From a virus (lineage: Duplodnaviria; Heunggongvirae; Uroviricota; Caudoviricetes), in IMG/VR virus record IMGVR_UViG_648276650_000002, positions 1-23,198 of that record: 23,198 nt of DNA. One strand, written 5' to 3'. Each line of letters starts with the position of its first letter. Position 1 is the stretch's first letter. A program made the position numbers. This document shows positions 3,001 to 6,000 of the stretch, one piece after another.

Positions 3001-6000
3001 ATTACGTTGTTTTTCACGACGTTCAAACTCCGAATCCATCCACATTGAGACCTGAGCCGACAAGTCAAGGCAGAGGCCAGACAGGGAAATTATTTGCTCG
3101 ATATCCATATCAATAATATTGGAGTTGATTAACTCCATTAATTGATAAAGGTTATCTGCTGTATTTTTTGCGGTTTCTAGAGAACTGTCTCTACTGAGCA
3201 TATTCAGACTCCGTAAGCTTTACGCATGAAAAGGTCAGATATATGGCGGTACTCGTCGCCATAGACCATAAAGAAAAGACATGCTGTTTTGTATGCCGCT
3301 TTATCGATTAACATTTACTTACCCATTTAAAAGTTGGTTAACGTGGTTGAGTAAATCGCTGTTGCATTCCCGCTATTTTTTTCATCAGGCCTGCATGTAG
3401 TAGTGGGTGAATCTCATCACATGTGGGCTTCCAGTCCTTAGCCTGTTGCATCTTGGCTGTGTGCCAGGCTAAGTGGGCTTCCTGTGTGGTGTTGAAAAGC
3501 CCAAGGTGTGAAATCTTTCCGTTTACGTTGATTCGTGCCCGAAACTTAGCGGACTGTTTATGCCAGATAACACCCTGTGGGTATTTCCCTCGTAAACGGG
3601 CGCGATCACCTGTAAATAAGTTAAGTGCTGGGGGAACAAATACGCAGTATTCAGGACCATATATCTTGTTACCATGGTGTAGCAGGTCCTTATCTAGCAC
3701 ATATCCATCGCGATAGTTTTCTTTCCAGAACGCCAGAAAGTTTGAGAATCGCAGCCACTCATCGGCAACAGTACATCCGGCGTAACTGTGCTCTAACTGT
3801 TCTGTGTGCGGTTTGTAGCAGCGAGATAACATGCCGCTCCAACGACGGTGAGCGCTGTGGTGGCACATTATTCCGTCGATGATAATAGTGCTGGGGAATT
3901 CTACGTCATAATGACCAACACCATACTCCAGGCTTTTTAAATGCCTACGCCGCGAAACTTTTGATTCAAGAAGACTATCTATTTCAGATTGGTTCATTTC
4001 AATCTCCTCTGAAATTTGGTTGCACGTATCCCCACCAGGGATGGTGTGATTTAAACTACCTATTAATTAATTTAATTTTATTTCGATGCTTTTCAGTAAT
4101 TCATGTACCTTAATGGTATTATCGAAAATAAGTGATGCCATCAGGCAATCAGCGTCATCACTGTCTTTTCCTGAAAAATATGATTCGTTATATACGTGAG
4201 CCAGTTCCCTGAGTTTTGCAGCGCTGACTGTGGCATAAAAAATATCATCGGCAATATCATCTCTATTCCCGATGGGGGGGTTAACTGTCTTTGCAGTATT
4301 TGCTAACTCTTCGATGTATGCGTAAGCTGTTTCACGGGTTTTATCGAAAGAGCGAATGAGGCAGGCTAAGCCGCAATCAGTTTCCTCGTTCATTTCTTCG
4401 GTGTTTCTATAAATCATTTCCAGAAGAGTATTGCCTTCGGAAATCTGAGCGACGATATCATGAAGCATGTCTAATGGAGTTTTCATTTATTCATTCTCCG
4501 GCCAATCATAACCAAGTTCATGGTTTAGAACAGAAAGATTATCCCTTAACTGATTGATACAAATTTTAATGAGTGCCGCTGGTTTATATGCAACATCTGG
4601 ATCTGATTCTGCGTACTCAAGCGCATTGATTACACGATCAATATCCATCGCAATTTTGTGGACAGTTCCGTTCTCGGAAAGCATTTTCTCTACATTCATT
4701 TCATAGGCTCCGTTGTCTGCTGATGAAGTGAATTTAGCAAAATGGTAAAAGCCATGCAAATGATAAATGCTAAATTATTTACTTTTTCTTTTATGTATTT
4801 GATAAATAATATAATTATTTATTATTATTCTTCGGTGGGCATAAAAAAACCCACCATCAGGTCGGGTGGGGGGGGGTAAAGATGGGGGTTACAGGGCGGG
4901 CATTTCATCATTGTCAACATAACGCGTATGCTTAACAATAGCTGAAACAAAATGCATTTTCTCGATGCTATCAGGACTTAAGGTGATGGGCCTGTGATCA
5001 CTGTTTACACTTGAGAATTGATAATCGCCATCGCGAGTTTTACTCATGATTTTTATCATGTTATGCCCATCTTTTGTTCGCACAAAAACCTCATCACCTG
5101 TATGAACTTGGGTGTTTGGCTCTATGACGACATATTCTCCAGACTGTATGCGTGGCCACATGCTGTCTCCCTTCACTTTCAGCCCATAGGCATCCCTATC
5201 CGCGCTGTATATTTGTAGCCATCCAGCGTGGATCTCTAGCATATCGATCATTCCGTCAATCCCAAGAATCGCTTCCCCTACAACTGGTACAGCTCCCGGA
5301 CGGACTGATCCGACATACTCCAACTCGCTTTTAATACTGCCAGGAGCATTGTGTGGACTATCCAGCCACCCAAACGGACGATCCAAGGCCTGTTCAATCT
5401 TTCTGGCCATTTTGTCCCCTATGTTTCGATGGCTATTGCCCCCAAGCAACTGGCTCAACTGGGCAGGGCTTATCCCGCACAATTCTGCGAAAGCTGCTTT
5501 TGTCGTATGTCTGTCGCGCTTCAGGAACTCAACAATGAGCTGCTCAAGGTTTGATTTGCGTATGCTTTTTATGTCCATGTCAAAATAATCTCATTATTTA
5601 GCAATGTGGTAAATACACAAACTGCTAAATGATTATTGCATTTAATTTAGCAAAAAGCTAAAGTTGATTCATTGCAACAGGAGACCGTAATGAACAACCA
5701 ATTACTTGCTTGGCGTAAGTGCTCAACAAAAGAGCAGTGGGCAGATCTTGCTAAAAAATCAGGCACATCTCCGGGATACCTGAATCTCATTGCTTATGGT
5801 CATCGCAATGCTTCCCCCAGACTGGCATTGGCGATCGAGAGCGCATCAAAGTCATTCGTGAATAAGCCAGTTATTACAAAAGAACAGTTGGTTTTCAAGA
5901 GCGGTTCTGAGGTGTGATATGTCGCACTCGATCACTACCGAAAACCAAGTTAAGCCATTGGATATCGATTATCGCGATCCGCGCGGTGTGATTGTGCATG

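What the first reader, a model, noticed from the sequence alone, without database searches (positions are those of the whole stretch)
5579..5689. Operator motif TTTAGC-N5-G(C/G)TAAA shared between the immunity region and the left promoter region
The repressor-cro intergenic region has three TTAGC-containing elements, including TTTAGC-AAAAA-GCTAAA and TTTAGC-AATGT-GGTAAA. A near-identical TTTAGC-AAAAT-GGTAAA and a GCTAAA lie at about 4733-4774, upstream of the first leftward gene. This defines a candidate operator consensus and an OR/OL pair for this immunity type.
Basis: seen in the sequence. Interest (0 to 1): 0.45.

Follow-up and report, generated by a model that had tools for sequence, protein, structure and literature searches.

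The report
Prophage repressor operators, H-19B type
The repeated TTTAGC-N5-GSTAAA motif is real and is almost certainly the set of repressor/Cro binding sites (OR and OL) of a lambda-like prophage, but it is an ordinary member of an operator family already known from the Shiga-toxin phage H-19B.

Summary
Exact TTTAGC-N5-G(C/G)TAAA 17-mers lie at 4733-4749, 5597-5613 and 5646-5662, against 0 expected by chance. Lone GCTAAA half-sites lie at 4769-4774 and 5624-5629.

The setting is a standard lambdoid immunity region:
- a 229-aa HTH + S24 repressor gene (4889-5578, minus strand);
- a divergent 75-aa Cro-like gene (5690-5917);
- a terminator-like hairpin after the repressor gene, then a leftward operon.

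Comparison with about 100 related loci shows a conserved layout of three sites on each side. On the right these are OR3, OR2 (one strong half only) and OR1. The half-sites are conserved while spacers and flanks drift.

The motif tracks the repressor's N-terminal DNA-binding domain. It is absent from loci that share only the S24 domain. The module is homologous to that of phage H-19B (cI 57% identical, Cro 49%), with sites at the same offsets. A review states that the H-19B operators have been characterised.

It is shared with Klebsiella, Erwinia, Pantoea and Pseudomonas phages, so it is not specific to one immunity type.

The most likely mechanism is a lambda-like switch. Binding itself is untested. 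Verdict: new member of a known kind, low interest.

The parts
5646..5662 (.). OR1: perfect palindrome TTTAGCAAAAAGCTAAA. It fills the spacer of the inferred PR promoter and covers the first 4 nt of its -10 hexamer.
   Evidence: Exact match on both strands. Positionally conserved in all relatives. Natural variants TTTATC.. and ..GATAAA occur next to an identical repressor N-terminus (L051, L052).
5613..5629 (.). OR2: ATACACAAACTGCTAAA. The right half (GCTAAA, 5624-5629) is strong; the left half is degenerate. It shares one base with OR3. Its centre lies about 43 nt upstream of the repressor ATG.
   Evidence: The half-site sits at a fixed 10-nt distance from OR3 in every relative and covaries with the other sites (GCTAAA changes to GATAAA in Erwinia, Pantoea and H-19B). 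The degenerate left half keeps T2, C6 and a following AA.
5597..5613 (.). OR3: TTTAGCAATGTGGTAAA. It overlaps the inferred -35 hexamer and spacer of the repressor maintenance promoter (PRM).
   Evidence: Exact match. In E. coli VREC0864 only the spacer changes (AATGT to AACAT) while both halves are kept.
4733..4749 (.). OL1: TTTAGCAAAATGGTAAA. It sits in the spacer and -10 hexamer of the inferred leftward promoter PL, in the same register as OR1 in PR.
   Evidence: Exact match. Invariant in VREC0864 although its flanks diverge. Conserved position across the family.
4758..4774 (.). OL2: AAATGATAAATGCTAAA. The right half is strong; the left half is degenerate and overlaps the PL -35 hexamer.
   Evidence: It lies 8 nt from OL1 in all relatives. 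The relatives mostly have AATAGC-N5-GCTAAA or AATATC-N5-GATAAA at this position.
4790..4806 (.). OL3: TTTATGTATTTGATAAA, with one mismatch to the family consensus.
   Evidence: It is one of only 4 matches in the window to TTTANC-N5-GNTAAA with at most 1 mismatch, against 0.74 expected. It lies 15 nt after OL2, where relatives carry their third site. It is conserved in VREC0864 and in the Citrobacter locus.
5636..5664 (+). Inferred PR promoter: TTGCAT (5636-5641), 17-nt spacer, TAAAGT (5659-5664).
   Evidence: Read by hand and checked. It matches 7 of 12 consensus positions and was not reported by the scan tool. TTG of the -35 hexamer and TAAAnT of the -10 hexamer are conserved in relatives. 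This is an inference.
4731..4759 (-). Inferred PL promoter: TTGCAT (4759-4754), 17-nt spacer, TAAATT (4736-4731).
   Evidence: Read by hand and checked. It has the same hexamers and the same operator register as PR. TTG is kept in relatives, seen as the CAA at the start of OL2. This is an inference.
5585..5613 (-). Inferred PRM promoter: TTTACC (5613-5608), 17-nt spacer, TGn-GATTAT (-10 hexamer at 5590-5585). Only 6 nt separate the -10 hexamer from the ATG, so the repressor mRNA would be leaderless or nearly so.
   Evidence: Checked. The pattern nAnnAT is invariant at this offset in 13 relatives (columns 10-15). This is an inference; no transcription start site data exist.
4889..5578 (-). Repressor gene (cI-like), 229 aa: N-terminal HTH_3 domain plus C-terminal Peptidase_S24 domain.
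   Evidence: Pfam. PHROG 4 'transcriptional repressor'. 57% identical to H-19B cI.
5690..5917 (+). Cro-like gene, 75 aa, HTH.
   Evidence: Weak HTH_3 hit. PHROG 35. 49% identical to H-19B Cro.
4487..4699 (-). First gene of the leftward operon, 70 aa, no family match.
   Evidence: ORF. Annotated as a hypothetical protein in E. coli EC2001. No Pfam or PHROG hit.
4840..4868 (-). Terminator-like hairpin plus a run of seven T after the repressor gene. It separates the repressor transcript from PL.
   Evidence: The sequence is. Relatives have a perfect CCGACC-TGAT-GGTCGG-T7. In the window the stem is imperfect, and RNAfold prefers an alternative hairpin.

Best explanation
These are the operators of a lambda-like genetic switch. 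Dimers of the 229-aa HTH/S24 repressor, and of the 75-aa Cro-like protein, bind 17-bp inverted repeats with consensus TTTA(G/T/C)C-N5-G(C/A/G)TAAA. There are three sites on the right (OR1 5646-5662, OR2 5613-5629, OR3 5597-5613) and three on the left (OL1 4733-4749, OL2 4758-4774, OL3 4790-4806).

OR1 and OL1 lie in the spacer and -10 hexamer of the early promoters PR and PL, so a bound repressor would block RNA polymerase and keep the prophage silent. OR2 and OL2 each have one good half-site, so they probably need cooperative help from a neighbouring dimer. OR2 abuts the -35 hexamer of the repressor's own promoter (PRM), at about -43, the position from which lambda cI activates PRM. OR3 covers the PRM -35 hexamer, so Cro, or excess repressor, would shut PRM off. 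SOS-triggered self-cleavage of the S24 domain would lift repression.

Shown here: the motif, its non-random clustering, its conservation, its co-occurrence with the HTH domain, and its homology to H-19B. Inferred: the promoter hexamers, the leaderless repressor mRNA, cooperativity, activation of PRM, and binding itself.
For: - Motif statistics. All 4 window matches to the family consensus fall in the two regulatory regions.
- Gene identities.
- Footprint against an 83%-identical E. coli relative: half-sites kept, spacer and flanks changed.
- Gap-free family alignment with information concentrated in the half-sites.
- Same three-site OL layout in relatives.
- Coordinated shift of all sites, including the lone half-sites, to TTTATC/GATAAA in Erwinia, Pantoea and H-19B.
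- Same OR layout in Pseudomonas-type phage contigs of 57-64% GC, whose repressor N-terminus is only about 43% identical.
- Motif present with this N-terminal domain in 4 of 4 loci and absent as a cluster in 0 of 33 loci that share only the S24 domain.
- A DNA-first scan recovered the repressor family next to the motif in 68 of 120 hits.
- cI is 57% and Cro 49% identical to H-19B. A review states that the H-19B right operator region has four operator sites, citing Shi & Friedman 2001 (PMC8065619).
- PR and PL have identical hexamers and an identical operator register.
Against: - No binding, footprint or transcription start data exist for this element.
- The three promoters match only 7-8 of 12 consensus positions and were not called by the scan tool.
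- OR2 and OL2 have very poor left halves in the window (2 of 6 and 1 of 6 matches), so whether they are occupied is uncertain.
- Site spacing is 16 and 33 bp in OR and 25 and 32 bp in OL, unlike lambda's 23-24 bp. Lambda-style pairwise cooperativity and PRM activation therefore cannot simply be assumed.
- I could not read the primary H-19B operator paper, so I could not check that its mapped sites are the 17-mers identified here.
Confidence: 0.9

Rival explanations
1. The conserved blocks are promoter elements only (-10-like TAAAnT and -35-like TTTAnC hexamers and AT-rich UP-like DNA). They would be conserved for RNA polymerase binding, not as repressor operators.
For: Parts of OR1, OL1 and OR3 do coincide with the inferred -10 and -35 hexamers, so some of the conservation may come from promoter function.
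Against: Both halves of each palindrome are conserved, including halves outside any hexamer. The lone half-sites lie outside the -35 to -10 core of the promoters. All sites shift together between TTTAGC and TTTATC types. The motif disappears when the repressor N-terminus is of another type, although such loci still need promoters.
Confidence: 0.04
2. The sites bind a different protein: a host factor, or a phage regulator other than the adjacent repressor and Cro.
For: No binding data exist. AT-rich palindromes can resemble sites for nucleoid proteins.
Against: The strict association is with one HTH domain type, across hosts from Pseudomonas to Escherichia. It is not with a host genus or with any other neighbouring gene; the replication and leftward genes differ between loci.
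Confidence: 0.03
3. The recurrence of a short AT-rich word in AT-rich intergenic DNA is due to chance.
For: The bare hexamer TTTAGC is not enriched over the whole window (17 found, 12.3 expected). One isolated TGCTAAAT at 10161-10168 looks like chance.
Against: None of 100 shuffles gives even one full 17-mer. The sites are conserved in position across many genera, including high-GC genomes where they stand out.
Confidence: 0.01

Closest known systems
[quoted passage not shown]
   Same: The repressor is homologous (57% identity) and so is Cro (49%). The 17-bp sites are at the same offsets. H-19B OR reads TTTAGCAAATGGATAAA, 10 nt, GATAAA, TTGCGG, TTTATCAAAATGGTAAA. H-19B OL reads TTTATCGGAATGATAAA, 8 nt, AATAGCAAAATGATAAA. 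The register of PR relative to OR1 is the same.
   Different: H-19B half-sites are mostly TTTATC/GATAAA, whereas the window's are mostly TTTAGC/GCTAAA. H-19B has a fourth candidate site directly after OR1 (TTGTTCTGTGTGATAAA), in line with the 'four operator sites' in the review; the window has none there. The window's OL3 is a good site, while H-19B's is degenerate. In H-19B, extra DNA lies between cI and OL and the first leftward gene is N. In the window, OL follows the cI terminator directly and the first leftward gene is an unrelated 70-aa ORF. Whether the two phages are homo- or hetero-immune is unknown.
Bacteriophage lambda OR/OL switch (cI, Cro, PR, PL, PRM)
   Same: Gene order: leftward operon, PL/OL, cI, PRM/OR/PR, cro. 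Operators are 17 bp with a central spacer. There are three sites per side. OR1 and OL1 lie over the lytic promoters. The weaker middle site abuts the PRM -35 hexamer. OR3 lies over PRM. The cI mRNA is probably leaderless. The S24 domain supports self-cleavage. The lambda facts are from established knowledge.
   Different: The operator sequence is unrelated (lambda: TATCACCGCCAGTGGTA). The HTH domain is of a different family. Site spacing is 16/33 and 25/32 bp rather than 23-24 bp. OR2 and OR3 share a base pair. OL and OR are only 913 bp apart. There are no rexAB-like genes between cI and OL.
Klebsiella phages KO-TP1 and vB_Kpn_Chronis, and the Pseudomonas phages Pacha_bin_1, Ostro, AV001, PotUPM1 and AUS531phi (sequenced; I found no operator description for them)
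   Same: The Klebsiella phages and the high-GC viral contigs whose repressors match the named Pseudomonas phages carry the same TTTAGC-N5-GCTAAA half-sites and the same OR layout. The Klebsiella phages also share the OL layout.
   Different: The repressor N-termini are only 62-65% (Klebsiella) or about 43% (Pseudomonas) identical to the window's. The surrounding replication and recombination genes differ.

Membership tests
Lambdoid cI/Cro immunity module of the H-19B type | Repressor with an N-terminal HTH DNA-binding domain and a C-terminal S24 (LexA-like) self-cleaving domain | tested here: met
   PF01381 at residues 23-72 and PF00717 at residues 101-206. The GDSM serine and the conserved lysine (S139, K176) are invariant in the family alignment.
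Lambdoid cI/Cro immunity module of the H-19B type | Sequence homology of the repressor and Cro to H-19B cI and Cro | tested here: met
   cI: 57% identity over 227 aa, E = 9e-92. Cro: 49% over 71 aa, E = 2e-22.
Lambdoid cI/Cro immunity module of the H-19B type | Divergent cI and cro genes separated by a short region with several inverted-repeat operators at conserved offsets | tested here: met
   The intergenic region is 111 nt. OR3, OR2 and OR1 align column for column with H-19B and 11 other relatives.
Lambdoid cI/Cro immunity module of the H-19B type | A second operator cluster at the leftward early promoter, downstream of cI | tested here: met
   OL1, OL2 and OL3 lie at 4733-4806 with the family spacing of 8 and 15 nt.
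Lambdoid cI/Cro immunity module of the H-19B type | The repressor and Cro physically bind these sites and control PR, PL and PRM | not testable with these tools
   This needs EMSA or footprinting and reporter assays. The primary H-19B paper (Shi & Friedman 2001) is not in the held library.
Lambdoid cI/Cro immunity module of the H-19B type | Four operator sites in OR, as reported for H-19B | tested here: not met
   H-19B has TTGTTCTGTGTGATAAA just after OR1. The window has TTGATTCATTGCAACAG at that place, with no half-site. This is a trait of H-19B itself, not of the wider family.
Lambda-type operator geometry | Three 17-bp sites with centre-to-centre spacing of about 23-24 bp, allowing pairwise cooperativity | tested here: not met
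   The 17-bp size is met. The spacings are 16 and 33 bp (OR) and 25 and 32 bp (OL).
LexA/SOS box | CTGT-N8-ACAG palindrome bound by host LexA | tested here: not met
   Read directly from the sequence: the sites are TTTAGC-N5-GCTAAA and contain no CTGT..ACAG.

The most novel reading that the evidence does not exclude
This repressor family may have kept one operator word (TTTAnC-N5-GnTAAA) and one unusual site geometry across phages of Pseudomonas, Klebsiella, Erwinia, Pantoea, Citrobacter and Escherichia. In that geometry OR2 shares a base pair with OR3, OR1 and OR2 are 33 bp apart, and OL has 25 and 32 bp spacing. If so, the switch would work with a cooperativity scheme different from lambda's. 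Immunity specificity between family members (for example this prophage against H-19B) would then be set by subtle features, such as position 5 of the half-site (G or T) or the spacer sequence, rather than by a different operator. That could allow cross-immunity between phages of different genera.
Probability: 0.25. Interest if true: 0.35.

Novelty: new member of a known kind. Interest (0 to 1): 0.15.

Why it matters
The result gives a complete, testable operator and promoter map for a prophage immunity region that is rare in E. coli (3 of 5,426 complete genomes have any match to the 1.7-kb query spanning it, 2 of them over most of its length). It also ties that region to the experimentally studied H-19B switch. 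The broader point is modest. The same operator word and layout recur with this HTH domain from Pseudomonas to Escherichia phages. This is useful for annotating immunity regions and predicting cross-immunity, but it does not change how such switches are understood.

Tried and rejected
- The sigma-70 scan tool found none of PR, PL or PRM. The hexamers are hand-read (7-8 of 12 matches) and rest on family conservation only.
- Full-text searches for five of the 17-mers (three from the window, two from H-19B) found no paper.
- The primary H-19B operator paper and the 933W operator paper are not held, so I could not check the experimentally mapped H-19B sites against my 17-mers.
- I considered other registers for the lone GCTAAA in OR, such as GCTAAA-TGATT-ATTGCA. 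I rejected them because the orientation of the half-site puts the dyad on its 5' side.
- I considered TTTACTTTTTCTTTTAT (4778-4794) as OL3. I rejected it for TTTATGTATTTGATAAA (4790-4806), which matches the consensus and the family position.
- The isolated TGCTAAAT at 10161-10168 has no partner half-site and fits the chance expectation of 0.87.
- I looked for a link between position 5 of the half-site (G or T) and the recognition helix. The same PAQLSQ helix occurs with both types, and variants of OR1 occur next to an identical repressor N-terminus. No simple code emerges.
- A PDB sequence search found no close solved structure, only a marginal hit to a phage CI N-terminal domain (E = 0.007).
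- In the DNA-first scan, 52 of 120 hits lacked the repressor. They may be chance matches or truncated loci and were not pursued.
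Full report
**1. Observation**

- The gap between the repressor start codon (ATG at 5578, minus strand) and the cro start codon (5690) holds three elements: TTTAGCAATGTGGTAAA (5597-5613), a lone GCTAAA (5624-5629) and the perfect palindrome TTTAGCAAAAAGCTAAA (5646-5662).
- About 900 bp to the left lie TTTAGCAAAATGGTAAA (4733-4749) and a second lone GCTAAA (4769-4774).
- The pattern TTTAGC-N5-GSTAAA occurs at three places in the 23,198-base window and never in 100 dinucleotide-preserving shuffles.
- The extended half-site TGCTAAAT occurs six times, five of them in these two regions, against 0.87 expected.
- The bare hexamer is not enriched over the whole window. The signal is in the pairing and the clustering.

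**2. Context**

- The minus-strand ORF 4889-5578 encodes a 229-aa protein with an N-terminal HTH_3 domain and a C-terminal Peptidase_S24 domain. It falls in PHROG 4, 'transcriptional repressor'.
- The plus-strand ORF 5690-5917 encodes a 75-aa HTH protein.
- After the repressor gene comes a hairpin followed by a run of seven T on the minus strand. Then comes an AT-rich stretch, and then a leftward operon whose first gene is a 70-aa ORF (4487-4699).
- An integrase gene lies at 313-1485 and a Q-like antiterminator gene at 9330-10166.
- This is the gene order of a lambdoid prophage.
- The region is rare in E. coli. Three of 5,426 complete genomes have any match to the 1.7-kb query spanning it: one at 99.6% identity, one at 83%, and one covering only 11% of the query.

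**3. Close-range comparison**

In the 83%-identical E. coli relative (VREC0864):
- both halves of every right-hand site are unchanged, while the spacer of the 5597-5613 site changes from AATGT to AACAT;
- on the left, TGAATTTAGCAAAATGGTAAA and GCTAAATTATTTAC are kept, while the DNA between and outside them diverges.

**4. Family-wide comparison**

I collected loci by three routes:
- a protein search with the repressor, followed by a genome scan;
- a viral-contig scan with the N-terminal domain alone;
- tblastn against deposited phage genomes.

Ninety loci gave 38 distinct right-hand regions. Thirteen non-redundant ones align without gaps, apart from a 1-nt shift in Pantoea. The shared layout, read from the repressor start codon, is:
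- CAT, then about 18 nt;
- a 17-mer (OR3);
- 10 nt;
- a 6-nt half-site (the strong half of OR2);
- about 6 nt;
- TTGnnn;
- 4 nt;
- a 17-mer (OR1).

Information content is 1.78 bits per column in the strong half-sites, 1.03 in the 5-nt spacers and 0.89 elsewhere.

The left-hand regions share a second layout: a 17-mer, 8 nt, a 17-mer whose left half is weaker, 15 nt, and a third 17-mer. With the family consensus TTTANC-N5-GNTAAA and at most one mismatch, the whole window has exactly four matches, all in these two regions, against 0.74 expected.

**5. The lone half-sites are real**

- Each lone half-site sits at a fixed distance from its neighbours in every relative.
- Each changes together with the full sites: GCTAAA in the window, Citrobacter, Klebsiella and Pseudomonas-type loci, and GATAAA in Erwinia, Pantoea and H-19B.
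- They are best read as the strong halves of 17-mers whose other half is degenerate: OR2 = ATACACAAACTGCTAAA (5613-5629) and OL2 = AAATGATAAATGCTAAA (4758-4774).
- In most relatives the left half of OL2 is AATAGC or AATATC. Its first two bases (AA) form part of the TTG of the inferred PL -35 hexamer on the other strand, which explains the constant departure from TTT (my reading).

**6. The motif follows the DNA-binding domain**

- Among the genome loci found through the conserved S24 domain, all four with the same N-terminal domain type have at least two right-side and at least one left-side match.
- None of the 33 loci with a different N-terminal domain has two matches; seven show a single one-mismatch hit.
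- In the reverse direction, I scanned viral contigs for ATTTAGCANNNNGCTAAA. Sixty-eight of them encode this N-terminal domain, typically 19-84 nt from the motif.
- These include contigs of 57-64% GC whose repressor N-terminus is only about 43% identical to the window's, yet the layout is the same. Their closest named relatives are Pseudomonas phages.
- AT-rich palindromes kept in place in high-GC genomes are strong evidence of constraint.

**7. Link to a studied system**

- The repressor is 57% identical to cI of the Stx1 phage H-19B.
- The Cro-like protein is 49% identical to H-19B Cro.
- H-19B has, at the same offsets on the right: TTTAGCAAATGGATAAA, a lone GATAAA, TTGCGG, TTTATCAAAATGGTAAA and a further TTGTTCTGTGTGATAAA.
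- On the left, H-19B has TTTATCGGAATGATAAA, then 8 nt, then AATAGCAAAATGATAAA.
- A review states that H-19B has four operator sites in its right operator region, citing Shi & Friedman 2001 (PMC8065619). Another paper refers to H-19B operator sequences known to bind its repressor (PMC1151598).
- I could not read the primary paper. The identity between its mapped sites and my 17-mers is therefore inferred.
- The window has no counterpart of the fourth site.

**8. Promoters (inferred)**

- PR: TTGCAT (5636-5641), 17 nt, TAAAGT (5659-5664).
- PL, on the minus strand: TTGCAT (4759-4754), 17 nt, TAAATT (4736-4731).
- In both, the operator starts 4 nt after the -35 hexamer and ends 4 nt into the -10 hexamer.
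- PRM, on the minus strand: TTTACC (5613-5608, the outer half of OR3), 17 nt, GATTAT (5590-5585), preceded by TGn. Only 6 nt separate the -10 hexamer from the ATG, so the transcript would start at or next to the start codon, as lambda cI mRNA does from PRM.
- The signature nAnnAT is invariant at that offset in all 13 relatives.
- These promoters match only 7-8 of 12 consensus positions and were not called by the scan tool.

**9. Mechanism**

The best-supported model is a lambda-like switch.
- Repressor dimers at OR1 and OL1 would block PR and PL.
- The half-degenerate OR2 and OL2 would be filled with help from neighbouring dimers.
- OR2 is centred about 43 nt upstream of the repressor start codon and abuts the PRM -35 hexamer. 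That is the position from which lambda cI activates PRM.
- OR3 overlaps PRM, so Cro or excess repressor would turn PRM off.
- The S24 domain has the conserved serine and lysine, so SOS-induced self-cleavage is the expected induction route.
- The geometry differs from lambda. Centre-to-centre distances are 16 and 33 bp on the right and 25 and 32 bp on the left, and OR2 shares a base pair with OR3. The details of cooperativity cannot be carried over from lambda.

**10. Specificity**

Position 5 of the half-site is G, T or C within the family and even within the window (OL3 uses T; OR3 and OL1 have C in one half).
- Contigs whose repressor N-terminal region is identical to the window's over the 79 residues compared carry OR1 as TTTATCAAAAAGCTAAA or TTTAGCAAAAAGATAAA (L051, L052).
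- The same PAQLSQ recognition helix occurs with both G-type and T-type operators.
- The motif therefore does not define a private immunity type. Whether this prophage is hetero-immune to H-19B or to the Klebsiella phages cannot be decided from sequence.

**11. Verdict**

Three refinements apply: there are three sites per side, the consensus is broader than proposed, and the system has a known homologous model. It is a new member of a known kind and would not surprise a specialist.

Noticed in passing
window 11351-11659 (+): A cluster of four tRNA genes downstream of the Q-like antiterminator gene: Met(CAT), an oddity that ARAGORN calls 'tRNA-???' with a two-base anticodon (11430-11503), Thr(TGT) and Gly(TCC). 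From my own knowledge, Stx-type lambdoid phages carry tRNA genes in this position.
   Followed up: no
window 10161-10168 (-): An isolated copy of the extended half-site TGCTAAAT at the stop codon of the Q-like gene (9330-10166). It has no partner half-site and fits the chance expectation of 0.87 per window.
   Followed up: partly
window 4836-4872 (-): The terminator after the repressor gene has an imperfect stem in the window (CCCGACC / GGTGGG with a bulge), whereas the E. coli relatives have a perfect CCGACC-TGAT-GGTCGG-T7. RNAfold prefers an alternative hairpin that uses the T-run as its loop. Read-through from the repressor gene into PL/OL may therefore differ between these prophages.
   Followed up: partly
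L051, L052 (viral contigs), OR1 position: Natural single-base variants of OR1 (TTTATCAAAAAGCTAAA and TTTAGCAAAAAGATAAA) occur next to a repressor N-terminus identical to the window's. They could be operator polymorphisms that tune repression.
   Followed up: no
L128, L141, L176, L184, L209, L224 (viral contigs, 57-64% GC): Pseudomonas-type phage contigs keep the same OR layout with TTTAGC-N5-GCTAAA and ATTAGC-N5-GCTAAA, although the repressor N-terminus is only about 43% identical. No left-hand sites were seen within 400 nt after the repressor gene in most of them, so their OL may lie elsewhere.
   Followed up: partly
L002 (E. coli VREC0864) 4423-5403: An IS5-family transposase is inserted in the leftward early operon of the related prophage. 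The replication module to the right of cro is also entirely different from the window's (BRO, ATP-binding and DnaB-like genes rather than DUF4222 plus a large AAA ATPase). The immunity module is thus exchanged as a cassette.
   Followed up: no
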